Positions 2,111 through 52,608 of a DNA stretch of 54,185 bases are shown here, piece after piece (the first letter of the stretch is position 1; each line of letters starts with the position of its first letter). The DNA is from a virus (Duplodnaviria; Caudoviricetes): the IMG/VR virus record IMGVR_UViG_3300036794_000064, positions 1 through 54,185 of that record; one strand, given 5' to 3'. A program made the position numbers and the translations under genes. The notes beneath the pieces were generated by a model. It saw only the letters and a program-made list of their open reading frames with translations, ran no database searches and was not told the DNA's origin.

Positions 2111-2343
2111 TGAGCCGGGGCCTCCGCAACTTCGGGGGGGGCTTCGACCGGGACGTCGGGCACCGCGACCGGTTCCGGCGCGGCCTCGTACTCGGACACG
2201 AAGTCGGCGTCGTTGACCGCGGTCACCGATCCGTCTTCGTGCTGGACGAGCCAATGCCCGGCCGGGATCGTCACCCCGGAGATGGTGAGGTCGAGGCTGA
2301 CTTGCGCGGCTTCGACGGTGGCGGGCTTGCGGATGTATTTCAT
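2107..2343 (-). CDS. Small protein of the 'YxxKP..VEA...G[DH]Whh...F..EYE' phage family (PGDYG/Acb4-like, tentative)
   Basis: MKYIRKPATVEAAQV...PAGHWLVQHEDGSVTAVNDADFVSEYE plus acidic Pro tail; RBS AAGGAG; ATGA overlap. Confidence 0.6.
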   Translation of the reverse strand: MKYIRKPATVEAAQVSLDLTISGVTIPAGHWLVQHEDGSVTAVNDADFVSEYEAAPEPVAVPDVPVEAPPEVAEAPAQ

Positions 2344-3404
2344 GCGGCGCTCCTTTTTTCGATCGGTGCGGTCCAGGTGTCCCACCAGCGGTCGCAGTGG
2401 GTTTCGTAGGTGAGGTCGGCCATCACCCGGCGCCCTTCCCCGGCCAGGTCGGTGCGGGCGTCGCGGCTGGCGCATAGCCGGCCGAGGGTGCGGGCCCACT
2501 GCCCGCGCGAGCTGGCGAGCATGCCGACCCCGGCCCGGTGCAACCGGAGGTTGTCGGGGGTGGGTGACATGACGACGGGGACGCCGAGGGCGGCCATCTC
2601 CATCGCTTTCAGGCACGACTTGGCGTGGTTGAACGCGGAGTCTTCGAGGGGGACGATGCCGACCTGGAGTTCGGCGAGCGCGTACGGGTAGTCGTCGAAC
2701 ATCACCCAGCCGGTCGCTGACGGTTTCTCCCGGAGCCGCAACGCTTGCTGGACGCCTTCGACGGGGCCGATCGTGTGGAACGTCCAGCCGGTGCGGGCGA
2801 GGACCTGCTGGACGGTGCCTTCGGTGGTTTGCAGGTCACCGGGGTGGGTGCCGACAACACCTGACCAGCCGATCGTGTTCGGGCGTTCCGGGACGGACAT
2901 GGCCAGGTAGGCGGCCGGGACCAGATTGGGGAGGAGGATCCCGTGGCCGTGGCCGTATCTTGATATCAACGGGGCGGTGGTCGCGGTGACGAGGTCGGCT
3001 TGTTGGCAGGCCCGGTCGATCCATTCGTGATGAACGTGGGTCTGCCGGTAGGAGCCGTGACCGACATGGCTTTTGGAGAGCCCGTCGAACAGGTCGTCGA
3101 CGTCGACGACCACCCGGACGCCTTGCTTGTGGAGGTCGGGGATCATGTCCGCCCACCAGCGCCGGCCGGGCCGTTGGATCACGACCACGTCAGCTTCGAC
3201 CGGCTGGGCCAAGCTGACGTATTGGACGTCGGGGCCCGGCGGTAGGCCGTCGTCGGCGCCGGGCCATTTGCGGTCCCAGTTGACGACCGGGCCGACGGTG
3301 TCGATGTGCACGTCGGCGCCCTGCTGCTGCAAGGCTTGGGCGGGCAGGATGAGCCGGTAGTGGCCGCAACCTTGAAGATCCGCCGGCCAAACGACAACCT
3401 TCAC
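2340..3404 (-). CDS. Glycosyltransferase, GT-B fold (GT4-like)
   Basis: GCGHYRLILP, VVVDVDD, ADLVTATT, IGWSG, VGIVPL..SAFNHAKSCLKAMEMAALGVPVVMSP. Confidence 0.85.
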   Translation of the reverse strand: MKVVVWPADLQGCGHYRLILPAQALQQQGADVHIDTVGPVVNWDRKWPGADDGLPPGPDVQYVSLAQPVEADVVVIQRPGRRWWADMIPDLHKQGVRVVVDVDDLFDGLSKSHVGHGSYRQTHVHHEWIDRACQQADLVTATTAPLISRYGHGHGILLPNLVPAAYLAMSVPERPNTIGWSGVVGTHPGDLQTTEGTVQQVLARTGWTFHTIGPVEGVQQALRLREKPSATGWVMFDDYPYALAELQVGIVPLEDSAFNHAKSCLKAMEMAALGVPVVMSPTPDNLRLHRAGVGMLASSRGQWARTLGRLCASRDARTDLAGEGRRVMADLTYETHCDRWWDTWTAPIEKRSAA

Positions 3405-4753
3405 TTCAGTCGGGCCAGCCTGTCCTGCACGCGGGCCAGGTCCGCGTCAAGCGCGGCGTCCGCTGCCGCCTGCGCTTCGGGACTGGCCGGCTCGGGCTCG
3501 GGGTCGGAGCGTTTGCCGGCGGTGTCAACGCCGAACTTCTTCGCCGCGGCGGTGATCTTCGGCATCGCCTCCTTCGCGAACTCGGCGCCTTGGGCGGCCC
3601 GGGCCAGCGCGTTACGGACATGAGCGGCGTCGGGCAGCGGGAAATGCCGCTTCGAGCGGGGCATCGTCTTGCCGGAGGCGTCTTTGGTGCCGCCCGGCTC
3701 GATGTAGCCGAACACCGAGTCGGGCAGGTCGTCGGTCTCCTTCGACGAGAGCATCGCCCGGCCGCCGTCACCGTCGTCGTGTTGGTCGGGGTCGTCGATG
3801 CCCATCACGTCGAGCAGCTCGTCGACCGCGACCCCGGCCGCCTGGACCAGAGCGAGGGCCTGCTGCACATTGTCCGGGAGGCTGGTGACGTCGAACCCGT
3901 CGAGCAGGTTCGCGGCCTCGTCCAGGGCGGCGTCGACCGCCGAGGCGAGCGTGGCCGGATCGCCGTCGTCTCCCCCGTCGCCGTCGCTGGCGACACCGCC
4001 GGTGGTGACGGTGCCGTCCGAGCCGATATGGATGACCATGTCCCGCAATCCGGACCCGGCCATCTCGCCGGTGAACTTCTCCACCCACGCGGCCCGCTGC
4101 TCGGCCGTCATCTCCGGTGGTCGAACGGTCGTGCCGATCTTGATGTGCTCCCGGAACGTCGGGTAATGCTCGGCGACCAACGCCCGCACCCCCTCGTCGT
4201 CCAGAATCCGCTGGTCCCGCAAGCGCAGGATCTCGTCGATGGTCGGAGTATCCAACGTGGGTGCCTCCTGGGAGCGGATCCCGACCGCGGCCGCGCCGGG
4301 GATCGACGGGAACACGACGGGAGAGTTTTCGAGCATGTCGGCCTTCACGAACCGGCGGGCCCCTCGAACATCGGGGTGGACGACGCTTCGCCCGTTGCGG
4401 TAGTGGAAGCTGAACCCGGGGACGATCTTGTCCTCGATCATCGAATGCGCCGCCCGGGCCTGGGGGACAGCGTCGAAGTCCGCGAACCGGTTGATGACCC
4501 GGGCCCGGTCGCCGAGTTCCTCGGTGCGGACGCCGGCGCCGATCAGAAGATCAGGATTGTGGTTCCACAACATCACCGGGAGACGCTTGGCGAACGATTC
4601 CCGCCAGCAGCCCCGGGCCCAGTCGGTGCGGTATCCGTCGAGGACCTGGTACGGGTAGTCGACCACCACTTGATGGCCGTCGAGGTCGGTGATCTCCGCG
4701 ACAGTGGCCACATCGGCCCGGTAGCCTTCTTCGAGTTGTTCGGTCATGGTCAC
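3401..4753 (-). CDS. HK97-type prohead protease with acidic linker and C-terminal DUF6582-like domain
   Basis: MLWNHN..IG (catalytic His), GFSFHY (catalytic Ser), LENSPVVFPS; C-terminal DLPDSVFGYIEPGG..RHFPLPDAAHVRNALAR. Confidence 0.85.
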   Translation of the reverse strand: MTMTEQLEEGYRADVATVAEITDLDGHQVVVDYPYQVLDGYRTDWARGCWRESFAKRLPVMLWNHNPDLLIGAGVRTEELGDRARVINRFADFDAVPQARAAHSMIEDKIVPGFSFHYRNGRSVVHPDVRGARRFVKADMLENSPVVFPSIPGAAAVGIRSQEAPTLDTPTIDEILRLRDQRILDDEGVRALVAEHYPTFREHIKIGTTVRPPEMTAEQRAAWVEKFTGEMAGSGLRDMVIHIGSDGTVTTGGVASDGDGGDDGDPATLASAVDAALDEAANLLDGFDVTSLPDNVQQALALVQAAGVAVDELLDVMGIDDPDQHDDGDGGRAMLSSKETDDLPDSVFGYIEPGGTKDASGKTMPRSKRHFPLPDAAHVRNALARAAQGAEFAKEAMPKITAAAKKFGVDTAGKRSDPEPEPASPEAQAAADAALDADLARVQDRLARLK

Positions 4754-4774
4754 CTCCAGGTGATGCCGGAAGAA

Positions 4775-6178
4775 TCAGGCTGCCGAGAACAGCAGCGAAC
4801 AGCGGCAGTTGCAGACTTCATCCGGTGGGGCGGTCGGGTCGCCGGGGAACATCATCCGGCTGGCGCCGACATGGAACGGGGCGTGCAAAGGGACTTTCTG
4901 GCCGTCGGCTTTGCGGTGGGTGGGCCGGGTGCGTTCGTCGTGGTGGGCGAGCCACTCCTTCGACGCCACCGCACCCGATTGCAGGCTCGCGGCATACAAG
5001 TAGGCGGCCTCGTTGAGGGCGCCGATGGACTCCGTCCGGGCGATCAGCTCGGCTCTCGATCGGGCGACGTCGAACACGTGCTGGACCCGGGCCGTCAACT
5101 GGGCGGTCGAGTCGCCGTCCTCGATGCCTTCGGCGAGGGTGTCGCGGATCTGGGCGAACGTGGTGTCGGTGATCGTGGCCGCGGCCCGGTTCTCCCGGCT
5201 CCGGAGGATGTACACCGACCGGGCGATCGACGTCGACGGGAGTCCGAGTTGCTGGGCGATTCGCTCGAGGGACAGGGTGTTGGCGTCGTCGTAGATCGGC
5301 GCGAGGGCTTGGGCGGTCTGGTCGGCCCAGAAGGTGGTGTCGAAGATGGCGGCGGCGTCGGGGACGGCCGGGACCGGGCCGGGTGTGCCGGTGGTCAACG
5401 CCGGCGGTACCGGGGCTGGGGGGAGCGCGGCCGGCGGGTTGCGCTGGTCGGCTCGGACACCGGCGAGCATCCGTTTCCCTCGGCTGCCGCGGAGACGGGA
5501 GAGGGTGCCAGCGCGTTGCCGGTCGAACAAGACGACCATCGCCTGATGGATGACCGGTTCGAGCTTGTCGGCGTCGGAAGCGAACCGGTCCTTGTGGACC
5601 ATCCGCTCGCGGTGTCTGCCCGCGGCCTGGGCTTGGCCGACAGTCGCCAGCGCACGCTTCCCGGCGGTCTTGGCCCGTTTCTTGCCGTGAATCGCGGCGG
5701 TGGCGGCCATGCCGCAGATCGTGCACTTGGTCAGGTCGGCGCCGCGGAAGGCGTGCGGAACATCCGCGTCGGGGTGCTGGCCGGCCATCTTCGCTTCGAC
5801 CGCCTGCGCTACTTTCGGCGACGGCCCACGAGGCAGGAGCGTCCCGGCCGAGCCGCCCTCGGTGACCGGGCCCATGTCCCGGGAGCCGTGGGCTTGTGCC
5901 TTTTTTGCCTCCCATTCGGCTACTGCTTTGGCGGCGCGGGCGCGGGTGGCGTCGGTGACTTTGCCTTCGCCGGCCGCCCACCGCTTCACGGTGCCGACGG
6001 CGAGGGAGACGGCGTCGGATTCGCTGTGGCCGGATCGGAGTAACGCCTGGGCGATGGCCCGGATGTACAGCGGGAGGCCGCCGACGCGGTTGACCCAGTT
6101 CTTGCCTTGGCCGATCGGGACGATGTCGCACGGACCGTCGCCGGTGCACACCCCGGAGCGGATGTCGGTGAGGGTCAC
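4775..6178 (-). CDS. MuF-like (SPP1 gp7) minor head protein with additional N-terminal domain
   Basis: RAELIARTES, KEWLAHHDERTRPTH..ADGQ, FPGDP..PPDEVCNCRC; GTG start overlaps the zincin stop. Confidence 0.88.
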   Translation of the reverse strand: MTLTDIRSGVCTGDGPCDIVPIGQGKNWVNRVGGLPLYIRAIAQALLRSGHSESDAVSLAVGTVKRWAAGEGKVTDATRARAAKAVAEWEAKKAQAHGSRDMGPVTEGGSAGTLLPRGPSPKVAQAVEAKMAGQHPDADVPHAFRGADLTKCTICGMAATAAIHGKKRAKTAGKRALATVGQAQAAGRHRERMVHKDRFASDADKLEPVIHQAMVVLFDRQRAGTLSRLRGSRGKRMLAGVRADQRNPPAALPPAPVPPALTTGTPGPVPAVPDAAAIFDTTFWADQTAQALAPIYDDANTLSLERIAQQLGLPSTSIARSVYILRSRENRAAATITDTTFAQIRDTLAEGIEDGDSTAQLTARVQHVFDVARSRAELIARTESIGALNEAAYLYAASLQSGAVASKEWLAHHDERTRPTHRKADGQKVPLHAPFHVGASRMMFPGDPTAPPDEVCNCRCSLLFSAA

Positions 6179-6615
6179 AGCGCCTCGAAGAATGCAACCG
6201 TGGCTGCGGCCGGGTAGTCGCCGTAGCCGTGGAGCAGCCACGTGCAGAAGGCTTCGGCAAAAGCCTCCATCCGGTTTCTTTGGGCGTAACTCGTGACCGG
6301 CTTGGCGTCGTGATCGAACCCCACGGAATGGTGGAGGACGTGTCCTAGTTCGTGAACCACTGTTGCTGGGCGGTGTCTCTTGGGAAGGACGACCGTCGTG
6401 CGGCGTCGGCTGGCAGCGAGGTGGTTCTGATGGAACGGGTAGGCGACGTGAGCGGTCGAACTGTACGCTCTGCCGTCGGTGGCCGTCTCGAAGTGGTGGA
6501 GGCCAGCGAACACTGGATCGACGCCGACAAGGAAGTCGCAGGCGACGAGGGGGTGAAGCGGCTTGGGGATGACGCCGAGGGCCGCGGTGATCGCTTCGGA
6601 ACGGCCGCGGTTCAT
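6175..6615 (-). CDS. Zincin-like metallopeptidase (HExxH)
   Basis: TVVHELGHVLH followed by SYAQRNRMEAFAEAF (third Zn ligand, lethal-factor-like pattern); ATG overlaps the portal stop. Confidence 0.8.
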   Translation of the reverse strand: MNRGRSEAITAALGVIPKPLHPLVACDFLVGVDPVFAGLHHFETATDGRAYSSTAHVAYPFHQNHLAASRRRTTVVLPKRHRPATVVHELGHVLHHSVGFDHDAKPVTSYAQRNRMEAFAEAFCTWLLHGYGDYPAAATVAFFEAL

Positions 6616-8774
6616 ACGCCGGCGACGGTGAGGGCGTCGCCGAGCCGCTCGAGGCGGTCCATGTCGAACACCGGCTCGCCCCGCTTCCCGGCCTGGTCGA
6701 CCGGCTGCGCGGCGTGCACCACCGGCAGCCACGACCCGGCATCGGCTTTCAGTTCGTCCCGCACCGCCGGGTTCTCCGGCAGATGGTCCGGGTCGAACCA
6801 GGCGGCCGTCTCCTGATACTTCCCGCGAGGATTGTCCGGGTTGCGGATCTTCGCCCGATCCGGGTTCACCTTCAAACCGGCCTCTTCGGGGATGACAAGC
6901 ACATGCCCCCGGTAGACGCCGTTCGGACTGGTCCACGACCCGGCGACGTTCCCGTCGGGCATCGGGACGCCGACCTCTTCCTGCCACTCCCGCCGGGCGG
7001 CGTCGAACGAGTCCTCGCCCGGTTCGATATGACCGCCAGGAAACTCCCACCGACCCGACGACGGATCCTTCTCGTCCAACGCCCGCTGCAACATCAGCAC
7101 CCGGCCGGTGTCACCAGCTTTGACCGCGACACCCGCCGCGACGAGCTTGGAGGGGCCGGAGCGGATGCCGAGCTCCCGGCGGCGGCGCATCCGGGCGACC
7201 TGCTCGCAGATCTGATCCGCCAGGATCGGCGTCGGAACCGCGGTGCGAGCCCGGTGGGCTCGGATACCGGCGGCGGTGATCCGCTCCCGCGGTTTGCGGA
7301 CCAGACCCCAGCCGGCCCGGCCCGAGTTGATCGTGAACGTCGTCGTCGGCCGGTGCCGCCACAGCCACCCTTCCGGCGCCCCCATGGCCGGCGACCCCGC
7401 ACCGTGCAGGCGCAGCGACCGGCCGCCCGCGCCGCCCGACGACGAGGCTTCGTCGACCTCCTCGCCGAGCGGCGCCGTCGAAATGTCCTCGCCGGTAGCG
7501 GTGAACGACGGGATCCGCAGCAGATCCGACGCCTGCTGCGGGCTGATCACCCCGGCGTCGATGGCGTCCTTCAATGACGGCGCCTGAAAGATCGTCGGCG
7601 GCTGGAGGGCGACGACACGGGACAGGTCGAACCAGCCGACATCTTCCCCCAACTTGGGGGCCAGCTGGAGGTTGACGTCGTCCTGGAGCTCCATGATGTC
7701 GTTCACCGCCGTCAACGTCCAGAAGTTCCGGTACTCGCTGTCGGCGTTCGCGTAGATCCGCTGCGACGCGTCACCGATCAGGCTCTTGGACACCCCCAAC
7801 GCGATGTTGATGTCGGACTTCGCTGTCTCCACCATCTGCAGCAGCTGGGCGTCGACGGACTTCATGGACAGGTCGACGACCTGCACGCTGGCCTGGTCGG
7901 CGAGTTTGCCGGCCTGGTCGTAGTCGTTCTCCGCCTCCGCGAAGATCGTCTTACCGGCGTTGTCGAACCCGGAGAACTCGGAGAAGAACTGGTCTTCCCA
8001 CGCCCGCCGGTCGGCGGGATCCTCGAACGGCGGGGCGATCACGATCTTCGACGCCACCATCCCGTTTTTCAGCAGGGACCACATGTACCGGTCGGAGGCG
8101 ACAGCGATCTCGATCGGCAGTTTCGCCGCTTTCAACACGGACTCGGGTTGGCGCCAGTCTTCGATGCTGGGCCGCCAGGCGTAGAAGACCCGGTCGACGG
8201 TGAACGGGATGATCCCGGTCGGGGTGCGGTACTGGAAGCCTTCGAACCAGGTGGGTTTGCCGGGCATCGACGGGATCGGGTCGAGCGCGGCGGCGACCAG
8301 CGGCCACAGGGCGATGATGTCTTTCGACTGCGGGTCGAGTTGCTGTTCCCAGGCCATGCGGCCGGTGACGATGCGCTGCACGATCGACCACGTCCACAGG
8401 GCTCGGGCGGTGGTCGTCGGGTTCGGTCCGCCCGGCTCCTGCGGGCTGGCGGGGCCGAGGAGTTTGGCGAGGGGTGCGCCGGGGGTGGTGACGGACGGGT
8501 TGTCGGGGTCAGGTCCGGCGCAGAACGGCAGGGCGCTGATGGTTTCGGCGCGCAGCCGGACGCAGCGCATCACATAGGTGTGGCCCATATAGGCGATCTG
8601 GGCGGCCTGCTGGGCGTCCCAGTCGACGTACAGCGGCTGGTGGGGGCTGACGTAGGTGGTGCTCGAGGTGGCGCCGATTTTCCCGCGGCCGGCGGCGGGC
8701 GGGTTGATGGCCATGCCGAGTCCGGCGCCGGTGCCGGGGAGGGCTCGGACGGCGAGGCGGTCTAGGAATCCCAT
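6612..8774 (-). CDS. Portal protein (HK97-like) fused to a C-terminal NUDIX hydrolase
   Basis: Position after terL; YVMRCVRLRAETISALP, NAGKT, DAQLLQ...INIALGVSKSLIG...YANA; Nudix box GGHIEPGEDSFDAARREWQEEVG at about 6968-7036. Confidence 0.9.
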   Translation of the reverse strand: MGFLDRLAVRALPGTGAGLGMAINPPAAGRGKIGATSSTTYVSPHQPLYVDWDAQQAAQIAYMGHTYVMRCVRLRAETISALPFCAGPDPDNPSVTTPGAPLAKLLGPASPQEPGGPNPTTTARALWTWSIVQRIVTGRMAWEQQLDPQSKDIIALWPLVAAALDPIPSMPGKPTWFEGFQYRTPTGIIPFTVDRVFYAWRPSIEDWRQPESVLKAAKLPIEIAVASDRYMWSLLKNGMVASKIVIAPPFEDPADRRAWEDQFFSEFSGFDNAGKTIFAEAENDYDQAGKLADQASVQVVDLSMKSVDAQLLQMVETAKSDINIALGVSKSLIGDASQRIYANADSEYRNFWTLTAVNDIMELQDDVNLQLAPKLGEDVGWFDLSRVVALQPPTIFQAPSLKDAIDAGVISPQQASDLLRIPSFTATGEDISTAPLGEEVDEASSSGGAGGRSLRLHGAGSPAMGAPEGWLWRHRPTTTFTINSGRAGWGLVRKPRERITAAGIRAHRARTAVPTPILADQICEQVARMRRRRELGIRSGPSKLVAAGVAVKAGDTGRVLMLQRALDEKDPSSGRWEFPGGHIEPGEDSFDAARREWQEEVGVPMPDGNVAGSWTSPNGVYRGHVLVIPEEAGLKVNPDRAKIRNPDNPRGKYQETAAWFDPDHLPENPAVRDELKADAGSWLPVVHAAQPVDQAGKRGEPVFDMDRLERLGDALTVAGV

Positions 8775-8796
8775 GCGACCACCTCCGGTCCGGTTG

Positions 8797-8958
8797 CTAA
8801 CGATGTTGGGCGGTGCGTCGGGCCAGTTCCCGCAGCTGGTCGGCCGACGCGCGGGCGAGGATCTCGGGGAGGTGGCGGGTCGCCCAGCGGATCCCGGCGT
8901 AGAAACTGCCGGCGCAGCCGACGCCGGTGATGATCGCGGACCATTCGAACGGGGTCAC
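8797..8958 (-). CDS. Small membrane protein
   Basis: MTPFEWSAIITGVGCAGSFYAGIRW hydrophobic segment; GTGA overlap with the terL stop. Confidence 0.55.
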   Translation of the reverse strand: MTPFEWSAIITGVGCAGSFYAGIRWATRHLPEILARASADQLRELARRTAQHR

Positions 8959-10238
8959 CGGCGGCTCACGTAGGTCATGCGGGCACCTCTCGGTTTCACG
9001 CTTTCGGCCAGGTCCGTGACCGCCCACACCAGGGCGTCCATCCGGTCCGGCGACGTCCCCGAGTCAGGCACCCACGACAACATCTGGTCCTCCAGCTGCG
9101 GGAACATCCCGACGTGGTGGACGCGGCCTTGCTCGTACAGGGCGGAGACAGGCTCGGCCCGCTGCCGTTTCCCCCGGGACGCGTGCACGACCCGGACCGG
9201 CACGTTGGGCCGCACGGAGCGGAGTGTGTGTTCGACCATCTGGCCGCCGTAGTTCGACTCGGCCACGACCCGGTCCCCGCAAAACTCGTCCAACGCCAAC
9301 AGGGCCCGGTCGGCCCACTGTTGCGGGGTGCCCCGACACGACCGGTCGGCCAGCACATAGAACTCGCTGCCCGCCCGGCCGCAGGCGACGATCCCGGTCT
9401 CGTCGTTGTGTTCGCCGGTGCCGCCGGCAGGGTCGATCGCCACCACCACCCGGTCCAGGTCGGGCGGTTCGCTGATTCTGCCGGCATCGACCAGGGCGAC
9501 AGTCCACAGGGCGCCCTCGACGTCGTCCAGGAGCTCGCCTTCGAGCTCCTGGCGGCCAAGGCGGGTGCCGCCGTAGTCGGCGTACAGCTGGTCGCGGACC
9601 ATCTGGTCGAGGTGGATCGCTTCGGAGGTTTTGCCTCGGGTGACCCGTGTTTTCGGGTCGGCGATGAACCCTTTCAACGCCAGGCGTGGTTTGGGGGTGG
9701 TCGACGCGACGATATGCGGCCGGGTGCCGAGGCGGAGACCGTAGCGGGAGTGGCGCATCGCCTCGTCGAGTTTCGCCCAGGCGGCGAGCTCTTCCCACCA
9801 GGCGAGGCACCGGTTTCCGCCGGCCCGGAGCCGTTCGACGTCTTCGGGTCCGTGGGCGCCGAACAGTTTCCCTTCGGCGCCGCCGGGGAACAGGACGTAG
9901 GTGCCGCCTTTGCGGGTCACTTCCCGGATTTCGGGCCAGTACGCTTTGAGGCCGGAGGGGCCGTTGACGCAGGCGTCGGATGCGTCGCCGAGGGTGGGGG
10001 CGATGATGGCCATGCGGTGGCCGCCGGGGAGTCGGTGGTCGCAGGCGGGGCCGCGGACGTGGTCGATGACGTAGTGGGCTGCCCCGTCGGTTTTGCCGGT
10101 GCCTCGGCCGCCGAGCTGGAGCCACGCGCCGGCTGGGGGGATGTGGTCGGGTGGGATTTGCCACGGGTACGGCTCCCAGCCGCCGTGATCGGGGGGCGGC
10201 CGGTCGACGAGTGCTGCTGTGGCGGCGAGGACTCCCAC
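8955..10238 (-). CDS. terL: Terminase large subunit
   Basis: Walker A GGRGTGKT, Walker B AWWEE, STTPK coupling motif, nuclease AIDPA, AESNYGG, SPDRMDALVWA. Confidence 0.95.
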   Translation of the reverse strand: MGVLAATAALVDRPPPDHGGWEPYPWQIPPDHIPPAGAWLQLGGRGTGKTDGAAHYVIDHVRGPACDHRLPGGHRMAIIAPTLGDASDACVNGPSGLKAYWPEIREVTRKGGTYVLFPGGAEGKLFGAHGPEDVERLRAGGNRCLAWWEELAAWAKLDEAMRHSRYGLRLGTRPHIVASTTPKPRLALKGFIADPKTRVTRGKTSEAIHLDQMVRDQLYADYGGTRLGRQELEGELLDDVEGALWTVALVDAGRISEPPDLDRVVVAIDPAGGTGEHNDETGIVACGRAGSEFYVLADRSCRGTPQQWADRALLALDEFCGDRVVAESNYGGQMVEHTLRSVRPNVPVRVVHASRGKRQRAEPVSALYEQGRVHHVGMFPQLEDQMLSWVPDSGTSPDRMDALVWAVTDLAESVKPRGARMTYVSRR

Positions 10239-10239
10239 G

Positions 10240-10524
10240 TCATCGGGCTCGGCGGCGCTGCATGCGCACTACTCGGTGACCGACCCGCTCGAGAGCTGGG
10301 ACGATCTCCTCGAGCGACCGGTAGGTTTCGAGTGGGAGTCGGGCGTAGAGCGTGCCGTCGGTGGTGGTGACGCCAAGATGCTTCCAGGTGATCGGCGGCT
10401 CGAAGATCACGTACTCGTCGAAGAGCTCCCACACTGCCGGATGGACGGACTCGACGCACACGGTGGTGACTATTCGGACCTTTCCGCCTTCGATCCCCCA
10501 CCCGGAGATGCTCATCGTGGGCAC
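10240..10524 (-). CDS. Hypothetical protein
   Basis: 94-aa ORF directly upstream of terL with normal composition. Confidence 0.5.
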   Translation of the reverse strand: MPTMSISGWGIEGGKVRIVTTVCVESVHPAVWELFDEYVIFEPPITWKHLGVTTTDGTLYARLPLETYRSLEEIVPALERVGHRVVRMQRRRAR

Positions 10525-10549
10525 AGTCCGCCATCACTAGCCGAACCGA

Positions 10550-10579
10550 AGCATGGCGTGTAGCAAACCCGCTTGTCAA
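10550..10579 (-). promoter_or_regulatory. Putative sigma70-type promoter for packaging/structural genes
   Basis: TTGACA (10579-10574), 18-nt spacer, CATGCT (10555-10550) in one of the few intergenic gaps. Confidence 0.5.
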
Positions 10580-10590
10580 GCATCCCCACG

Positions 10591-11292
10591 TCAGGACGCC
10601 TTCGCCTGCCGTTGGCGGGTGACGGTGAACCAGCAGGATTTGGCGTGGAAGGCTTGCCCGTCGATGCGGCGGATCGGGTCGTCGCGGCCGCCGGCGACCG
10701 GCTTCTCGCACAGCCCGCACGTCTCGGAGGCCGGGGTTCGCTGCCCGACCGTCACGCCGCCCATGCTGGTGCCTTTCGATGGCGGCCCGGGCCAGTGCCG
10801 GGCGGCGGAGTCGGCGAGTCGGTACAGGAGGCCGCGTTGGTGGTCGTGGCCGGGCCGGTGCGCATCCCAGCTGTCGGCGAGCACGCTGACAGCGGCGAGG
10901 AGTTGGGCCCGGACGGGGTCGGGTTGCCATTCGACCTGGACATGCGCGGTCGGGTAGGCGGCGGCGAGGATGGCGAGGACGGTGTCGTGGAGTTCGGAGA
11001 TCCAGCCGACTGCGTAGCCGATGTCGTGGCCGGTGAGCGCCGCGAGTTCGACACCGGTAGCCGAGACGCGTTCTTCGTGGTCGCCGACCTGCACCCGCAA
11101 TGTCGGGCCTCCCCCGCTGCCGCCGTCGTAGCCGGCCCGGCCCGGGAATCCGATGGCGCCGACGTCGAGGAGGGCGTCCGGCCACGCGTCGCAGACCCGG
11201 TCGACGGCGGTGCGCATCGCCTGGCGGTGCTGCTGCGCCGCGGTCAGCGGTTTCGGCTCGGCGGTCCGTTTGAGGCGGGATTGCTTGCTCAT
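10591..11292 (-). CDS. Hypothetical protein with C-terminal CxxC..H..C motif (possible late regulator)
   Basis: 233-aa ORF, RBS AAGGAGG, ATGA overlap; CGLC...HAKSC. Confidence 0.65.
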   Translation of the reverse strand: MSKQSRLKRTAEPKPLTAAQQHRQAMRTAVDRVCDAWPDALLDVGAIGFPGRAGYDGGSGGGPTLRVQVGDHEERVSATGVELAALTGHDIGYAVGWISELHDTVLAILAAAYPTAHVQVEWQPDPVRAQLLAAVSVLADSWDAHRPGHDHQRGLLYRLADSAARHWPGPPSKGTSMGGVTVGQRTPASETCGLCEKPVAGGRDDPIRRIDGQAFHAKSCWFTVTRQRQAKAS

Positions 11293-11945
11293 ACGCCCTC
11301 CTTGATGCCGGCCGAATCGAGCCGGCGCAACTCCGTCCCCAACACCTGCCGGGCCCTGTCATGCAACTCCGCCGGCACCACCGACGCGAGCATCACATCC
11401 ACCGCCCCCGCCAGCAGCACCGCCTGCGCCTCCTCGACCCGCACCCGCCGCTCGGCCATCCCGAGTTTCACGCAGATCTCATCGATCTTCGCCAACCGGT
11501 CCGACCAGTCGCCCAACATCTGGACCAGCACGTGAGGTTTCGCCTCGCCGGTCGGCTTCCCGGTCTGATGGTACGTCCGCCCGTAGATCCCGTCCGTGCC
11601 GCCCGCCCCCGGCATGTCCGCCTCGGGCACCAACTTGAGGTTCCCGACCAGCGTCCACAGGGCGTCGACAGTCCCCCGGTACCGGTCCCGGAGCTCCGCG
11701 AGCGCCTCGCCGTCCGACGTGCGGATCGGCAGCCCCAGACGGGCCAACTCGGCCGCGGCGACCTCGACCTGGATGCGCCGGTCCGCGGCGGCCGCCACCT
11801 GGGCTGCCCGGGCGCCGTGGTAGCGGCAGACGGTGGCACCCCGTCTCGGCCAGTTGCCGCACGGTTCGCCGTCGGTGCTGCGATGGCTGGTGCAGCCTCG
11901 TGGATGGGTTTTCCCGCAGTCTGAGCACTGGAAGGGTCCGCTCAT
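11289..11945 (-). CDS. Putative terminase small subunit (HGGxSTG-like Cys/His domain)
   Basis: CTSHRSTDGEPCGNWPRRGATVCRYHGARA motif followed by a helical region; upstream of terL. Confidence 0.6.
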   Translation of the reverse strand: MSGPFQCSDCGKTHPRGCTSHRSTDGEPCGNWPRRGATVCRYHGARAAQVAAAADRRIQVEVAAAELARLGLPIRTSDGEALAELRDRYRGTVDALWTLVGNLKLVPEADMPGAGGTDGIYGRTYHQTGKPTGEAKPHVLVQMLGDWSDRLAKIDEICVKLGMAERRVRVEEAQAVLLAGAVDVMLASVVPAELHDRARQVLGTELRRLDSAGIKEGV

Positions 11946-12217
11946 GGCCGTACTGGCGGGTCGGGGATGGCGATGTGTTGGGTTCGGGCCCGTACGAGGT
12001 GGCTTTGGCCTCGGCCTCGGCGTTGGGTGATGTGTTCTTTGTGGGCTCGGTCGAGGAGGTTGAGGGCTGTGCGTGGTGCGACCCCGGCGGCGGTCATGGT
12101 TTGGATGAGGCTGGGACGCGGGTGCCATTTGCCGTCGCTGATGGTGATGAGCATGGTTTGCCATGCGGCCCAGAGGCGGGGGGATGTGTCTGGCCGGATG
12201 TCGGGTTGCCAGGTCAC
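11942..12217 (-). CDS. Small putative winged-helix protein
   Basis: 91-aa ORF coupled to the downstream gene; GVAPRTALNLLDRA helix pattern. Confidence 0.5.
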   Translation of the reverse strand: MTWQPDIRPDTSPRLWAAWQTMLITISDGKWHPRPSLIQTMTAAGVAPRTALNLLDRAHKEHITQRRGRGQSHLVRARTQHIAIPDPPVRP

Positions 12218-20534: not shown

Positions 20535-20881
20535 AGCGGATACTCGTCGTCATCGGGGTCATCGTCGACCTCTTCGGCGTCGACCAGGTCCTGGAAGACG
20601 GGCGCCAGTTCCGGTGTCATGGACCGAGCCGCGGGCCAGGCGTAGCCGGCGACGCGCTCCGCCTCCTCCCGGGAGCACGGACGGATGGCGAAGATGGAGT
20701 CGGAGCCGTAGTACTCGGTGAGCGGTTCGGTGCCGGTGTGGTCGGTGCGGGTGGGGTGCTCGATGCGGAGCAGGGTGGCGCCGCCGAGCTGGGCGTCGGA
20801 GAGGAGCCCGGCCCGGGTGCGACGGCCCATGATCTCCACGACCGCCCACAGGCCGACGTCGGCTGGGGCGGCGTCGCTCAT
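20531..20881 (-). CDS. Hypothetical phage protein
   Basis: WAVVEIMGRRTRAG...LLRIEHP...YYGSDSIFAIRPCSREEA; acidic tail. Confidence 0.7.
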   Translation of the reverse strand: MSDAAPADVGLWAVVEIMGRRTRAGLLSDAQLGGATLLRIEHPTRTDHTGTEPLTEYYGSDSIFAIRPCSREEAERVAGYAWPAARSMTPELAPVFQDLVDAEEVDDDPDDDEYPL

Positions 20882-21759
20882 GCCGGGGGTGTGCCACGGA
20901 AGGCGACGAGGCCGACACCGTGCTCGACGTCGGACACAACATCGTCGAACGCGGTGCGGATCACGTCGTGGGGGCGGGTGAGCAGATAGCGGACCCGGAG
21001 GGCGCCGTCGTTGATTCGGAACTGGAAGCGGGCGTCGACCGGGTAGCCCTCGGTTTGGCCTTCGAAGCAGATCAGCCCGAGCTTGAACTTCGAGGGGATA
21101 GTGATGGTGGCGTTCTCGCCGGCCCGGGCGTCGATGGTCTCGTGGTAGGTGAACTGGCGTTGCCCGTTCCCGAGGAGCTGCTGGGAGCGGAACTCGAGCC
21201 GGTTCTTCGCCGACATGGTCTGCGCCAGCTCGAGCATCTCCGCGGCGGACGGTTCGACGATCTCGCCGTAGCCTTCTTCGAGGTGTTCGCCGAACTCGAC
21301 CTGGGCCAGCCACACCCGGTCCTGGGACGTCCAGTGCAACCATTCGGGGGCGTAACGCAGCGCGAGCGCGGCGCGGTGGTCGCCCCAGCCGGGGATGGCG
21401 CCGCCGGCGCCGTGGCCGTTGAGGACGGCGGTGACGGTCACCTTGTCGACATCGGCGTAGAGGGCGGTGCAGACTTTCTCGGTCTGGTCGGCCCGGGCGG
21501 TGTCGACCTGGTTGCGGTCGGCGGGGGCGGTTTCGTGGCCGTGTTTGCGGACGTACAGGACCAGCGAGTCGGGGGTGTGGACCGCGACGCGGGCTTTCAC
21601 CCGTCGGGGCGCGTCGAGGAGCGCCTCGTGGTCGTAGTGGTGCAGTGCGGTCTTGTTCGAGTAGACGATGGTGCCGGCGTCGCCGGCGATGGCGGGGATG
21701 TCTTCGCTGGTGGTGGCGTCGACGGCGAGGTCGGCGATGGCTTCGGCTTCGGTGCTCAT
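20878..21759 (-). CDS. YfdQ/DUF2303 family protein
   Basis: WGDHRAALAL..PEW..W, QVEFGEHLEE, PSAAEMLELA, IPSKFKLGLICFEG, ARFQFRI. Confidence 0.85.
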   Translation of the reverse strand: MSTEAEAIADLAVDATTSEDIPAIAGDAGTIVYSNKTALHHYDHEALLDAPRRVKARVAVHTPDSLVLYVRKHGHETAPADRNQVDTARADQTEKVCTALYADVDKVTVTAVLNGHGAGGAIPGWGDHRAALALRYAPEWLHWTSQDRVWLAQVEFGEHLEEGYGEIVEPSAAEMLELAQTMSAKNRLEFRSQQLLGNGQRQFTYHETIDARAGENATITIPSKFKLGLICFEGQTEGYPVDARFQFRINDGALRVRYLLTRPHDVIRTAFDDVVSDVEHGVGLVAFRGTPPA

Positions 21760-30591: not shown

Positions 30592-30861
30592 ATGACTGGC
30601 TTTTGGGCTGAGGATCAGGACCAAGCCGATCTGCCTCCTCACCTACGAGATGATGCACCAGAGGCGACGTGTGGCCGCTGCGGCCGTACGACCTGGGACC
30701 CCGAGATGTTCGGTCAAGAGGACCGCATGACCCAACCCGATGGCTTCCCCTGCGGAGGTCGCTTCTCTGATCCGAAGACAGACGGCGTCGATTTGGGGGA
30801 CATGGACGTATTCCGCATGGCTCAAATCAGCCAAGAATCTCAGACAGACCTCGACGCGTGA
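30592..30861 (+). CDS. Small CxxC protein, paralog of 18160..18372, coupled to the integrase
   Basis: WAEDQDQADLPPHLRDDAPEATCGRCGRTTWDP...; stop overlaps the int GTG. Confidence 0.75.
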   Translation: MTGFWAEDQDQADLPPHLRDDAPEATCGRCGRTTWDPEMFGQEDRMTQPDGFPCGGRFSDPKTDGVDLGDMDVFRMAQISQESQTDLDA

Positions 30862-32102
30862 CCGGGAAGCCGCTGAGCGGCAAGGGACGCCGGGGCCGCG
30901 GTGAGGGCACGCTCGAGCAGCGCGGCAAGGGCGTCTGGCGCATCCGGGTCTACGCCGGCACCGATCCAGTAACCGGCAATCCCCGACAGGTGTCCCGCAC
31001 CGTCCGGGCCCGCACCAAGACCGAGGCATTGGCGCTGATGCGCGACTTCCTCCAGGAGATTAAAGAGGGGAAGGTGCAGCTCCGCACGCAGGCCACCGTC
31101 GGGCATCTCTTCGACGCCCACCTCGAGCATCTGCGCCGGGTCGGTCGGGCCCCGGCCACGATCGAATCGTACGAGCGGGTGATCGACAAACGGCTGCGAC
31201 CCGCGTTCGGCCACATCGGGCTGCGGGACCTGACAGCGAAGGATCTCGACGACTACTACGGGGACCGCAAGGCGGCCGGGTCGAAGCCGGCGACGATCCG
31301 CCAGCACCACTCGATCATGTCCGGGGCGCTCACCCAGGCGGTCAAATGGGGTTGGCGGGACAAGAACCCGGCCGCGGCGGCCACGCCGCCGGAGAAACCG
31401 AAAGGCAAGAAGCGGATCCCGGTGGTGGAAGAGGTCCGCAAGCTGATCGACGCGGCCGGGGAGGTCCCCGAGCAGACGCCGCGGACGGATGTGGACTTGG
31501 CGGTCGCGGTGATGGTGACGGCGGTGATCCTGCTGGCGATCACCGGCTGCCGGCGCGGCGAGATGGTGGGGTTGCAGTGGGCGGATGTCAATTGGGCTGA
31601 CAGCACTCTGAGCGTGGTCCGTCAGCGGATCCCGCTCCGGGGTGGTGACGCTACGATCGAGAACACCAAGGGTGAGGGCGATGACCCGGATCCGCCGGTG
31701 GCGCTCGGCCCGCTCGGGTTGGCGGTGCTCCGGGAGTTCCGGGCTGTCGTGGCGGCGAAGGCGGCCGAGCTCGAGGTGCCGGTCGGCGTGTGGCTGCTGT
31801 CGAAGGATTGCGGCCGGTCGCCGCTGAACGCGAAGGGTTTCGGGTCGGCGATCACGGAGCTCGGCAGGAAGACCGGGGTGCCGGTGACGACGCACGCGTT
31901 CCGCCGGTTCGCTGCTACCCGGATGATCGCGGACGGGGTCGATGTCGTGACCGCGGCGGGGCGGTTGCGTCACACCCCGGAGATGCTGCTGCGGGTGTAC
32001 GCCGGGTTCGTGCCGGCGAAGGATGCCGCCGCCGCCCGGGGACTCGAGCAGCTGGTCCTCGGCCCAGCGTCGCCGTCGCAGGTCGAGGGTACGGTCGGCT
32101 GA
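30858..32102 (+). CDS. int: Tyrosine integrase
   Basis: Arm-binding N-terminus; TGCRRGE, NTKG, HAFRR, LRHT, VYA catalytic residues. Confidence 0.93.
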   Translation: MTGKPLSGKGRRGRGEGTLEQRGKGVWRIRVYAGTDPVTGNPRQVSRTVRARTKTEALALMRDFLQEIKEGKVQLRTQATVGHLFDAHLEHLRRVGRAPATIESYERVIDKRLRPAFGHIGLRDLTAKDLDDYYGDRKAAGSKPATIRQHHSIMSGALTQAVKWGWRDKNPAAAATPPEKPKGKKRIPVVEEVRKLIDAAGEVPEQTPRTDVDLAVAVMVTAVILLAITGCRRGEMVGLQWADVNWADSTLSVVRQRIPLRGGDATIENTKGEGDDPDPPVALGPLGLAVLREFRAVVAAKAAELEVPVGVWLLSKDCGRSPLNAKGFGSAITELGRKTGVPVTTHAFRRFAATRMIADGVDVVTAAGRLRHTPEMLLRVYAGFVPAKDAAAARGLEQLVLGPASPSQVEGTVG

Positions 32103-51279: not shown

Positions 51280-52608
51280 CTACGACAGGGCCGTGTTGCA
51301 GGCCAGGTCGGGCCGGAAAATCATGAGCCCGGTCCGCTCCTCCGTGATCAGCAGCACCAAGTTCTGCTCGGCGTACCGCTCGTTGTACACCTGGGTGTTG
51401 ACCTGCTCGCGGTCGACGATCATCATCGACCGTTCGAAGTCGCACACCAGAGCGGACCCGGAAGGCTTGGCACGGGTCCGGTAGGTCGGCACACCCCACA
51501 CCGTCAGCGGCAGAGCCGAGAACGGCGTGCCGGCATCGAACGTGCCGGACCCGCCCGCCGCGCGCTTGGTGAACATCGACCAGGCGTCCGTCGGGTTGAA
51601 CACCACCGCGGTGACCGCCCCGTCCTGGTTCTCCACCTTCGCGAACGCATTCCCGACAGTGATCGCGTACTCCCCCGAGGTTGAGGTCTGGGAGAGGATG
51701 TTGGGGTCGTTGAGGATGCCGCCGATGTCCGGCCACGTGCCCGACCCGGACAGGTACTGCTGGTCCTCGCGGAACTTCACCAGGTACGGGAGACGCTGGT
51801 TGATGTACTGGACTACCGCGGGGGCGTCCTGGAACATCTGCTTCGACAAGGTCAACGTCGACGCCACCACGGTGATGGGGGCGTTCTCCGACTCGAACGA
51901 CAGCTGCGCGGACGGCTTGGTCGAGCCTTCCGCCACCGTCGAAGCGCCGCCGGAGGCGACGGACTCGCCGGCGACCGGGTTGAGTTCCCGGACGTACGGC
52001 ATCGTCGGCAGGGTGGTGGTCATGGTCGGGATCAGGTCCCGCAGGTACAGCTTGGCGTGACGCGGCACCGGAGGGATCGGCTGGCCCAACCTGGGGAGGA
52101 GACCGCCGGAGTCGGTCGAATCGAAGCTCGGAGGACCGGACGATCCCCATTCGGTGACCGCGGCCCGGACGCCTTCGCCGCCGCCGTAGATCGCGGCGAG
52201 ACGCAGCCAGTTGGTGAGCTCCTTGCCGTCTTTGCCGTCGAACTCGGCGGAGAACACGTGCTGGCGTTGACCGGAGCGGCCGTCCAGTTCGTAGTTGACC
52301 CAGCCGCCGTTCGGGCTGCGCTCGAGCGCGGCGAGGAGTTCGGGAGTGACGATGGCGTCGCCGATCGACCGGAACCCGGCGCCGACGAGCGGGGCGGCGG
52401 TGGCGGCGATGCGGGCCTGCTCGCGTCGTTCGACGGCGGCGGACAGGGTCAGGAAGGTGTCGAGCGAGTCGACCTCGCGGATCATGTCCTTGAGGGCGTC
52501 GTCGTCGATGTCGGAGCGGCGCCCTTCGGACAGGTCGATGAAGTCGCTTTTCAGCTCCTTCAGTCGGGCTTCTACGTCCTCTACGGACGCGTCGGATAGT
52601 TTCAGCAC
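51280..52608 (-). CDS. Major capsid protein (HK97 fold, N-terminal scaffold/delta domain)
   Basis: LRDLIPT, YVRE, VAEGSTKP, LSKQMFQDAP, EDQQYLSG.G, FNPTD, WGVP, NLVLLITEERTGL..FRP. Confidence 0.93.
   Translation of the reverse strand: MLKLSDASVEDVEARLKELKSDFIDLSEGRRSDIDDDALKDMIREVDSLDTFLTLSAAVERREQARIAATAAPLVGAGFRSIGDAIVTPELLAALERSPNGGWVNYELDGRSGQRQHVFSAEFDGKDGKELTNWLRLAAIYGGGEGVRAAVTEWGSSGPPSFDSTDSGGLLPRLGQPIPPVPRHAKLYLRDLIPTMTTTLPTMPYVRELNPVAGESVASGGASTVAEGSTKPSAQLSFESENAPITVVASTLTLSKQMFQDAPAVVQYINQRLPYLVKFREDQQYLSGSGTWPDIGGILNDPNILSQTSTSGEYAITVGNAFAKVENQDGAVTAVVFNPTDAWSMFTKRAAGGSGTFDAGTPFSALPLTVWGVPTYRTRAKPSGSALVCDFERSMMIVDREQVNTQVYNERYAEQNLVLLITEERTGLMIFRPDLACNTALS

What the first reader, a model, noticed from the sequence alone, without database searches (positions are those of the whole stretch)
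6612..7170. Portal protein fused to an intact NUDIX hydrolase
Seen: one 720-aa ORF with a portal N-terminus, a linker of about 100 aa, and a NUDIX domain with a complete Gx5Ex7REUxEExG box. Known: portals are dodecamers whose C-terminal crown faces the capsid interior. Inference: about 12 NUDIX domains per virion could hydrolyse ADP-ribose, NAD-derived or other nucleotide defence signals at injection, or regulate NDP-sugars for the adjacent glycosylation cassette.
Basis: partly seen in the sequence, partly recalled or inferred. Interest (0 to 1): 0.75.

Follow-up and report, generated by a model that had tools for sequence, protein, structure and literature searches.

The report
Phage portal protein carrying a NUDIX enzyme
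A soil phage's portal protein really does end in an intact NUDIX nucleotide-pyrophosphatase domain, one example of a large group of phage head proteins carrying this enzyme that has been described by computer analysis but never tested at the bench.

Summary
ORF 6612..8774 (-) encodes one 720-aa protein with an HK97-type portal (aa 68-413), a conserved tether of about 105 aa, and a NUDIX domain (aa 545-690) with a perfect Nudix box (aa 581-603). Third-position GC stays in one frame throughout. Contigs from other soil runs carry no indels. Twelve relatives at 50-77% identity keep the same fusion, so it is not an assembly or frameshift error.

It is not new in kind. The same NUDIX clade (about 50% identical) sits inside portal-NUDIX-MuF proteins of Arthrobacter phages Sonali and Mufasa8, a MuF-NUDIX protein of Pseudanabaena phage Pam4 and a prohead-protease-NUDIX protein of Streptomyces phage Gilgamesh. 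Iyer et al. 2022 (PMC9503650) already describe Nudix fusions to MuF, portal and the capsid protease and propose head packaging and injection.

- The clade has 437 clusters at E<=1e-30, and nearly all of the best matches are embedded in larger proteins.
- The catalytic REUxEE core is present in 237 of 237 members checked.
- The nearest solved structure is mycobacterial RenU, an ADP-ribose/FAD/NADH pyrophosphatase (Z 16.8, next 13.2).
- The neighbouring glycosyltransferase occurs independently of the NUDIX domain.

Substrate, cleavage from the portal and injection are all untested.

The parts
6612..8774 (-). Portal-NUDIX fusion gene, 720 aa, stop TGA at 6612-6614
7536..8573 (-). HK97-type portal domain (aa 68-413)
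   Evidence: Pfam PF04860 E 3.3e-26. TIGR01537 portal_HK97 is below its cut-off. Foldseek matches to GTA, HK97 and T5 portals at E 7e-10 to 2e-7.
7458..7478 (-). TAPLGEE motif at the end of the portal part (aa 433-439). T433, P435, G437, E438 and E439 are invariant in 13 of 13 close relatives. A variable low-complexity stretch follows.
   Evidence: A role as a processing site is speculation only.
7173..7424 (-). Conserved tether (aa 451-534): beta-hairpin module around aa 470-493 and a helix at aa 517-534
   Evidence: Conservation. AF2 secondary structure with block-mean pLDDT 54-85 over aa 451-540 in the domain model.
6705..7142 (-). NUDIX hydrolase domain (aa 545-690)
   Evidence: Pfam PF00293 E 2.8e-19. 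Block-mean pLDDT 84-96 over aa 541-680, 80 for 681-690. VIA-align Z 16.8 to RenU 6uuf_B.
6966..7034 (-). Nudix box GX5EX7REUXEEXGU (aa 581-603)
   Evidence: Regex match. R595, E596, W597, E599 and E600 invariant in 120 of 120.
6615..6704 (-). C-terminal tail (aa 691-720) with invariant G696 and R698 and a terminal helix (LERLGDAL)
6175..6615 (-). 146-aa HExxH (HELGH) zincin-like gene. Its start overlaps the portal stop (ATGA). It is specific to this phage among the loci compared.
4775..6178 (-). 467-aa MuF / SPP1 gp7-type minor head protein. Its start overlaps the previous stop (GTGA).
   Evidence: Pfam PF04233 E 1.6e-18. phrog_2662 positions 426-708.
3401..4753 (-). S78 prohead serine protease with a long C-terminal extension. 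It is the candidate protease for any release of the NUDIX domain.
   Evidence: Pfam PF04586 E 1.1e-6. phrog_80.
8955..10238 (-). Large terminase, immediately upstream of the portal gene
   Evidence: Pfam Terminase_6N and Terminase_6C

Best explanation
The gene encodes a genuine HK97-type portal protein whose C-terminus carries an active, monomer-type NUDIX pyrophosphatase on a conserved tether of about 105 aa. Because the portal is a dodecamer with its C-terminal end inside the head, up to twelve NUDIX domains would be built into each capsid next to the MuF minor head protein. That makes it a head-internal cargo enzyme of the MuF/polyvalent-protein kind.

The most likely chemistry is hydrolysis of the pyrophosphate bond of ADP-X compounds: ADP-ribose, NADH, FAD, ApnA, or the same linkage in NAD-capped RNA or ADP-ribose-derived signals. 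The most likely timing is at or just after genome delivery, following release from the portal by the prohead protease encoded two genes downstream.

Shown here: the fusion, the intact catalytic core, the recurrent fusion to head proteins, and the structural closeness to RenU. Inferred: the capsid-interior location. Not shown: substrate, cleavage and injection.
For: 1. The fusion is real: frame-consistent GC3, no indels in other runs' contigs, and the same layout in 12 relatives at 50-77% identity.

2. The enzyme is under selection. R595, E596, W597, E599 and E600 are invariant in 120 of 120 aligned homologues. The REUxEE core is found in 117 of 117 and 120 of 120 proteins checked by regex.

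3. The partners are head proteins.
- Of the 120 best matches of 396-1260 aa (the window's own protein included), 74 carry Phage_portal, 26 of them with MuF as well. Three more carry MuF alone, 8 the S78 prohead protease and 1 the Mu-type portal.
- Named phages show portal-NUDIX-MuF (Sonali gp3, Mufasa8 gp3), MuF-NUDIX (Pam4 gp13) and S78-NUDIX (Gilgamesh gp52).

4. A length-unbiased search gives 437 representatives at E<=1e-30. Of the best 150, only 6 are under 260 aa and many are 1200-3088 aa. In 26 long proteins scanned, the domain occurs alongside portal (10), GNAT (4), MuF (3), ADP-ribosyltransferase (2), Arr (1) and 2H phosphoesterase (1).

5. In this portal lineage the usual form is a portal-MuF fusion (11 of 19 portal ORFs scanned). 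phrog_2662 covers the window's portal and its separate MuF protein end to end. The NUDIX therefore occupies the slot between portal and MuF.

6. The nearest solved structure is RenU (6uuf_B): Z 16.8, rmsd 3.2, 135 residues aligned. The next matches reach 13.0 and 13.2 in two searches, over 48,161 and 997 chains. RenU is monomeric, prefers ADP-ribose, FAD and NADH, and is poor on NTPs and GDP-mannose (PMC4401782, passages read).

7. Iyer et al. 2022 reached the same head-packaging inference for Nudix fusions to MuF, portal and capsid protease.
Against: - No virion proteomics, structure or enzyme assay exists for any member. The literature searches found only the computational paper.
- A domain covalently tied to the portal stays in the capsid unless it is cleaved, and no cleavage site is established.
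- Substrate inference from fold is weak. RenU does not appear among the best 60 PDB sequence matches, either to the single domain or to the family profile. The best sequence matches are BdRppH, MutT2 and MutT-like proteins, mostly over the Nudix box.
- No curated NCBIfam model reaches its cut-off.
- T4 NudE falls in a different PHROG: phrog_1185, against phrog_1198 for this domain.
Confidence: 0.55

Rival explanations
1. RNA 5'-end enzyme. The domain acts like RppH, NudC or T4 NudE.1, removing pyrophosphate or NAD/Np4N caps from host or phage RNA early in infection, to trigger host mRNA decay or protect phage transcripts.
For: - BdRppH is the best PDB sequence match (E 2.6e-7).
- BdRppH, E. 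coli RppH and Dcp2 are among the second-tier structural matches, tied with Ap4A hydrolases (Z 12.5-13.2).
Against: - The RppH models of NCBIfam score far below cut-off (26.8 against 116 bits).
- RenU stands 3.6-3.8 Z units above all RppH and Dcp2 chains.
- This rival overlaps chemically with the best explanation, since an NAD cap is an ADP-X linkage.
Confidence: 0.2
2. Producer-cell enzyme. The NUDIX acts in the infected cell late in infection, for example clearing ADP-ribose or NADH produced by NAD-depleting defences, or sanitising nucleotides. Fusion to the portal only ensures co-expression, and its presence in the capsid has no function.
For: - Late expression with the head genes is guaranteed by the fusion.
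- Six of the best 150 clade representatives are under 260 aa and may be free-standing.
- JGI labels many members with the generic MutT name.
Against: - Independent fusions to three different proteins that all end up inside procapsids (portal C-terminus, MuF, S78 protease), and to giant polyvalent proteins, are hard to explain by co-expression alone.
- The MutT equivalog model scores 38.1 bits against a cut-off of 97.9.
Confidence: 0.15
3. NDP-sugar control for the neighbouring glycosyltransferase.
For: A GT-B type glycosyltransferase (2340..3404, -) lies four genes downstream in the same head operon.
Against: - Homologues of this glycosyltransferase occur in 10 of 23 related-portal loci, and only one of those (L007) has the NUDIX.
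- None of the four named NUDIX-fusion phages shows a homologue in the fetched flanks. Some loci are short, so absences are soft.
- RenU, the nearest structure, has low activity on GDP-mannose.
Confidence: 0.04
4. Assembly or frameshift artefact, or a dead domain.
For: High-GC genomes give long spurious open frames, and the tether is Arg/Gly-rich.
Against: GC3 periodicity, no indels in other runs, 12 relatives with the same fusion and a conserved tether, and an invariant catalytic core.
Confidence: 0.02

Closest known systems
Portal-NUDIX-MuF fusion proteins of Arthrobacter phages Sonali (gp3, 995 aa) and Mufasa8 (gp3, 1000 aa)
   Same: Portal at the N-terminus and a NUDIX domain at about aa 545-650 of the same clade, 51-55% identical over about 120-135 aa. 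The gene follows the large terminase directly.
   Different: In those phages MuF is part of the same polypeptide. Here the protein stops after the NUDIX domain, a 146-aa HExxH gene intervenes, and MuF is a separate, translationally coupled gene. The portal parts themselves did not match in tblastn.
Head-packaged Nudix fusions described by Iyer, Burroughs, Anantharaman and Aravind 2022 (Viruses 14:1977, PMC9503650)
   Same: The architecture class (Nudix fused to MuF, portal or the capsid-processing serine peptidase) and the proposed logic of packaging into the head and injection (section 3.5.2 read).
   Different: The paper calls them 'T4-like nudE'. Here T4 NudE and this domain fall in different PHROGs, each being the other's second-best, and BLASTP similarity is limited to 64 aa around the box. 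The paper's supplementary lists were not opened, so I cannot say whether close relatives of this protein are listed there.
RenU, Nudix hydrolase of Mycobacterium smegmatis (PDB 6uuf)
   Same: Best structural match over nearly the whole chain: Z 16.8, 135 of 155 residues, rmsd 3.2. Both are single-domain. RenU is monomeric.
   Different: Only 21% identity, and RenU is not among the top 60 sequence or profile matches. It is a free cellular enzyme working with PknG and L13, not a virion protein.
MuF (SPP1 gp7) cargo proteins and polyvalent proteins (Iyer et al. 2017, PMC5512222)
   Same: An enzymatic effector domain attached to a head-internal carrier. In long homologues the same NUDIX clade occurs alongside ART, GNAT and 2H domains (passages read).
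   Different: Here the carrier is the portal itself, an obligate structural ring that is not ejected. Delivery would need cleavage.
T4 NudE.1 (nudE, NP_049737)
   Same: A phage Nudix enzyme encoded next to late and internal-protein genes. The record annotates it as active on FAD, ApnA, ADP-ribose and NADH, the same substrate set as RenU apart from ApnA.
   Different: Free-standing at 151 aa, and in phrog_1185 rather than phrog_1198.

Membership tests
Nudix hydrolase superfamily (PF00293) | Nudix box GX5EX7REUXEEXGU with the metal-binding Glu residues | tested here: met
   Strict regex match at aa 581-603. REWxEE invariant in 120 of 120 homologues.
Nudix hydrolase superfamily (PF00293) | Profile score above Pfam's gathering threshold, and a Nudix fold | tested here: met
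   69.9 bits against 21.1. AF2 block-mean pLDDT 84-96 over aa 541-680. 101 solved chains at Z>=8, and all 50 listed are Nudix-fold entries.
Nudix hydrolase superfamily (PF00293) | Mg/Mn-dependent pyrophosphohydrolase activity | not testable with these tools
   Needs an enzyme assay.
HK97-type phage portal (PF04860) | Profile score above threshold, portal fold, and a gene next to the large terminase | tested here: met
   92.7 bits against 39.1. Foldseek E 6.8e-10 to the GTA portal and 2.1e-8 to the HK97 portal. TerL at 8955..10238 directly upstream.
HK97-type phage portal (PF04860) | Dodecameric ring at one capsid vertex with the C-terminal crown inside | not testable with these tools
   Inferred from homology to solved portals. 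No oligomer prediction was run.
T4 NudE-like phage Nudix clade (as named by Iyer et al. 2022) | Specific sequence relationship to T4 NudE | tested here: inconclusive
   T4 NudE hits phrog_1185 (4.7e-74) then phrog_1198 (3.4e-7). The window domain hits phrog_1198 (5.8e-17) then phrog_1185 (1e-9, box only). BLASTP E 6e-6 over 64 aa.
Head-packaged MuF/portal cargo (polyvalent-type) effectors | Effector domain fused to or embedded among portal, MuF or prohead-protease proteins | tested here: met
Head-packaged MuF/portal cargo (polyvalent-type) effectors | Physical presence in virions and delivery into the host | not testable with these tools
   Needs virion proteomics and ejection assays. No such data were found.
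RenU-like ADP-ribose/FAD/NADH pyrophosphatases | Close structural similarity over the whole domain | tested here: met
   Z 16.8, rmsd 3.2, 135 aligned. The runner-up is 13.0 in the wide search and 13.2 in the second look.
RenU-like ADP-ribose/FAD/NADH pyrophosphatases | Detectable sequence-family relationship | tested here: inconclusive
   6uuf is not among the best 60 phmmer or profile matches shown. Identity in the structural alignment is 21%.
MutT 8-oxo-dGTP diphosphatase (TIGR00586) | Score above NCBIfam's equivalog cut-off | tested here: not met
   38.1 bits against 97.9
RppH RNA pyrophosphohydrolase (NF001938) | Score above NCBIfam's equivalog cut-off | tested here: not met
   26.8 bits against 116

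The most novel reading that the evidence does not exclude
The portal-borne NUDIX is a pre-loaded counter-defence enzyme. It is released inside the head by the prohead protease and expelled with the DNA. It then destroys ADP-ribose-based immune messengers (Thoeris-type cyclic ADPR or His-ADPR), or NAD caps, before any phage gene is expressed. The portal-[cargo]-MuF slot would then be a general, swappable delivery site, here also holding a small HExxH peptidase. Another reading that the evidence does not exclude is that the twelve enzymes stay on the crown and act on the DNA end or on nucleotides inside the capsid.
Probability: 0.2. Interest if true: 0.75.

Novelty: new member of a known kind. 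Interest (0 to 1): 0.35.

Why it matters
If virion-borne NUDIX enzymes are delivered with the DNA, they would be a widespread class of immediate-early phage effectors acting on NAD/ADP-ribose chemistry. That chemistry is the currency of Thoeris, DarTG, NAD-depletion defences and NAD-capped RNA. The clade is large: 437 clusters at 50% identity score E<=1e-30. The class has been predicted from domain architectures but no member has been assayed, located in a virion or mutated. Cultured members exist (Arthrobacter phages Sonali and Mufasa8, Streptomyces phage Gilgamesh, Pseudanabaena phage Pam4), so the question is directly testable. The structural link to RenU narrows the first substrate panel. 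For this particular window the finding is a clean, well-supported example rather than a discovery.

Tried and rejected
- Frameshift or assembly error: rejected.
- Independent translation of the NUDIX from an internal start: M529 has no clear ribosome-binding site and is not conserved in relatives. Unlikely.
- Close DNA relatives among deposited phages: megablast of 4000-12000 found none.
- The search for related loci with the single protein found none. It worked with alignment A3.
- Profile searches of PDB sequences with A1 and A2 matched only the Nudix-box region, so they did not discriminate subfamilies.
- BFVD fold search returned generic viral Nudix proteins with no informative top match.
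- Fused forms of the 146-aa HExxH protein: none at E<=0.001 among 257-2000-aa proteins, which is weak evidence.
- RNA evidence: no RNA holder was listed among the sequencing runs, so nothing can be said on expression.
- Earlier scan notes: none for this genome.
- A short contig in X2 and X7 that joins 8026 to 6629 with 27 other letters rests on pieces of about 24 nt with mismatches. I take it as unrelated sequence.
- No complex prediction was run, because no binding claim is made.
- The supplementary files of PMC9503650 were not opened. They may list relatives of this protein.
Full report
**What is there**

The window is a complete 54,185-bp virus record with 127-bp direct terminal repeats. 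It is a temperate siphovirus-type phage at about 68% GC, with the following genes:
- tyrosine integrase at 30858..32102 (+)
- HK97-fold major capsid protein at 51280..52608 (-)
- tail tube protein
- tape measure protein
- large terminase at 8955..10238 (-)

Immediately downstream of the terminase lies ORF 6612..8774 (-), 720 aa. Pfam finds Phage_portal at aa 68-413 (E 3.3e-26) and NUDIX at aa 545-668 (E 2.8e-19), both far above their gathering scores. The canonical Nudix box GX5EX7REUXEEXGU matches exactly at aa 581-603, nt 6966-7034. Its coordinates mark the NUDIX part of the ORF.

**Is the fusion real?**

In this high-GC genome the coding frame shows as a high third-position GC. That signal stays in the portal frame (0.77-1.00) from 8714 to 6614, through the junction region, and only then moves to another frame for the next gene.

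Logan contigs of four other soil-metagenome runs were laid on 6100-8900 and show no inserted or deleted letters:
- Two runs span the stretch in one contig, with 0 and 1 substitutions. The tool notes that near-identical runs may be the source sample.
- A third run tiles it with 0 differences.

The stronger evidence is evolutionary. Twelve proteins at 50-77% identity, from several databases, have the same layout in one ORF of 710-798 aa. The region between portal and NUDIX is conserved among them (GW.W.H.P.TT.T..SG.AGWGL.. and a following helix). AlphaFold models it as a small beta-hairpin module plus a helix, separated by low-confidence stretches. The start codon has a GGAGG upstream. The only Met before the NUDIX domain is not conserved. 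I put the chance of an artefact at about 2%.

**Surroundings**

The head operon is tightly coupled.
- The portal-NUDIX stop overlaps the start of a 146-aa ORF with an HELGH motif (ATGA at 6612-6615).
- That ORF's stop overlaps the GTG start of a 467-aa MuF / SPP1-gp7-type protein (GTGA at 6175-6178).
- Next come an S78 prohead protease with a long C-terminal extension, and a glycosyltransferase.

phrog_2662, a 717-position portal-MuF fusion profile, matches the window's portal part (positions 43-470) and its separate MuF protein (positions 426-708).

IMG/VR gave 23 loci with related portals. I scanned 19 portal ORFs. I left out L016 (it runs off the contig), L021 (a short frame), and L026 and L027 (same length as L025). 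The result:
- 11 portal-MuF fusions
- 6 portal only by Pfam
- 1 portal with an intein
- 1 (L007) portal-NUDIX

The NUDIX module therefore sits in the slot between portal and MuF of an otherwise common fusion, and in this phage the polypeptide ends after it. In L007 the MuF gene follows directly.

**How widespread, and is it known?**

tblastn against deposited phages found the same NUDIX clade at 45-53% identity:
- Arthrobacter phages Sonali gp3 and Mufasa8 gp3: portal-NUDIX-MuF, 995 and 1000 aa, annotated 'portal and MuF-like fusion protein' or 'MutT/NUDIX hydrolase'
- Pseudanabaena phage Pam4 gp13: MuF-NUDIX
- Streptomyces phage Gilgamesh gp52: S78 protease-NUDIX, next to the capsid gene

A search restricted to proteins of 396-1260 aa gave 469 clusters at E<=1e-5. 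Of the 120 best (one is the window's own protein):
- 74 carry the portal family, 26 of them with MuF as well
- 3 carry MuF alone
- 8 carry S78
- 1 carries the Mu-type portal
- 29 have no other family on record

A length-unbiased HMMER scan of 1.84 billion representatives gave 437 at E<=1e-30. Of the best 150 only 6 are shorter than 260 aa, and 37 of the 117 new ones exceed 1200 aa. In 26 of these long proteins the domain occurs alongside portal (10), GNAT (4), MuF (3), ADP-ribosyltransferase (2), Arr (1), 2H phosphoesterase (1) and inteins (3).

This is the 'polyvalent / MuF cargo' world described by Iyer et al. 2017 (passages read). The specific point is in print in Iyer et al. 2022, section 3.5.2 (read in full). 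[quoted passage not shown] My searches for experimental work on virion-borne Nudix enzymes found none. Subscription journals are not covered by the library.

**Is the enzyme active, and on what?**

The metal-binding core is invariant. R595, E596, W597, E599 and E600 are conserved in 120 of 120 aligned homologues, along with family-specific positions W614, E631, W659 and R672. REUxEE is present in all 237 proteins checked. The only common box variant is Asp for the first Glu. A dead domain is excluded as far as sequence can show.

Sequence comparison does not assign a subfamily:
- No NCBIfam equivalog reaches its cut-off: MutT 38.1 against 97.9, RppH 26.8 against 116, NudE 18.7 against 169.
- PDB sequence and profile matches cover little more than the box.

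Structure is more informative. A domain model (aa 441-720, mean pLDDT 81, NUDIX core mostly above 90) was aligned to 48,161 representative chains, and again to Foldseek's best 997. Both searches put M. smegmatis RenU (6uuf_B) first at Z 16.8 (rmsd 3.2, 135 of 155 residues, 21% identity). It stands above a plateau at 12.5-13.2 made of Ap4A hydrolases, BdRppH, RppH, Dcp2 and the NadM Nudix domain.

RenU is monomeric. It prefers ADP-ribose, FAD and NADH, does not hydrolyse NAD+, and is poor on NTPs and GDP-mannose (PMC4401782, passages). That is almost the substrate list in the T4 record for NudE, and T4 NudE.1 also decaps NAD-RNA in vitro (abstract).

T4 NudE itself is not in the same PHROG as this domain. 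Each is the other's second-best family. I therefore treat 'T4 NudE-like' as unproven and 'works like an ADP-X pyrophosphatase' as the best guess, at about 45%. A shared fold does not prove a substrate.

**Mechanism**

Shown: the fusion, the conserved tether, the intact catalytic site, and the repeated attachment of this clade to three proteins that all reside inside procapsids.

Inferred from the known architecture of HK97-type portals: the C-terminal end lies inside the head, so up to twelve NUDIX domains hang beneath the crown. By my own rough arithmetic, twelve domains of about 30 kDa amount to about 1% or less of the volume taken by a 54-kb genome, so space is not an obstacle.

Not shown: whether the prohead protease cuts the domain free, and whether it leaves with the DNA. 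An invariant TAP[ILV]GEE motif ends the portal part and an invariant G-x-R follows the NUDIX. As processing sites these are speculation.

A portal ring is not ejected, so without cleavage the enzyme would stay in the capsid. This is the main weakness of the injection idea for this architecture in particular.

**The glycosylation idea**

Homologues of the glycosyltransferase are present in 10 of the 23 related loci, and only one of those has the NUDIX. None of the four named NUDIX-fusion phages shows a homologue in the fetched flanks. The glycosyltransferase belongs to this head-module lineage, not to the NUDIX.

**Verdict**

This is a new member of a kind that has been described computationally but never tested. 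It is worth a bench test in the cultured relatives, but it is not a surprise to specialists in phage comparative genomics.

Noticed in passing
window 6175-6615 (-): A 146-aa ORF with an HELGH zincin motif, wedged between portal-NUDIX and MuF with 4-base overlaps at both ends. The protein Atlas places it with small viral clusters, some labelled ATLF/M90-like (a lead only). It may be a second cargo in the portal-MuF slot.
   Followed up: partly
window about 5897-6100 (-), aa 27-94 of the MuF protein; also L008:6121-6351, L009:3458-3664, L010:7074-7277, L028:9849-10091: A domain of about 70 aa (..NWV.R.GGLP.YI..IA.AL...GHSES.A....) at the N-terminus of the MuF protein. It is 44-71% identical in four related loci (60-71% in L008, L009 and L010; 44% in L028), more conserved than the rest, and lies directly after their portal ORFs. 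In relative P0006 it is fused to the C-terminus of the NUDIX domain.
   Followed up: partly
window 2340-3404 (-): A GT-B glycosyltransferase (phrog_7162, E 4e-32) inside the head operon, between the prohead protease and the capsid gene. It is conserved in 10 of 23 related loci, which suggests virion glycosylation in this lineage, independent of the NUDIX.
   Followed up: partly
relatives P0012, P0159, P0163, P0203 and L028:6001-9774: Inteins or homing-endonuclease domains (LAGLIDADG_3, Hom_end_hint, Hint_2) in relatives: P0012, P0163, P0203 and L028 have portal hits on record; P0159 has only NUDIX and intein-type hits. The window's portal has none.
   Followed up: no
window 33057-35261 (-): A 734-aa tail-fibre-like protein with an Mtd_N (major tropism determinant N-terminal) domain, E 7.6e-12. 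I did not check for a diversity-generating retroelement.
   Followed up: no
window 3401-4753 (-): The S78 prohead protease (aa 21-156) carries an extension of about 300 aa: an acidic, Ala-rich stretch and a DUF6582-like end (E 2.8e-3, below cut-off). It may be a protease-scaffold fusion.
   Followed up: no
window 25168-26463 (-), 22921-25029 (-), 20878-21759 (-): A Gp3-like recombination directionality factor domain (E 1.3e-41) in a 431-aa protein, a 702-aa ParB-like protein and a DUF2303 protein lie in the early region.
   Followed up: no
protein P0010: A 720-aa relative, 65% identical in the NUDIX region, is recorded by NCBI from an Acidimicrobiaceae MAG. This hints that the hosts of this phage group are soil Actinomycetota.
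   Followed up: no
window 7660: One run (X5) carries C instead of G in its spanning contig. This is the only difference seen across 6100-8900 in four runs.
   Followed up: no
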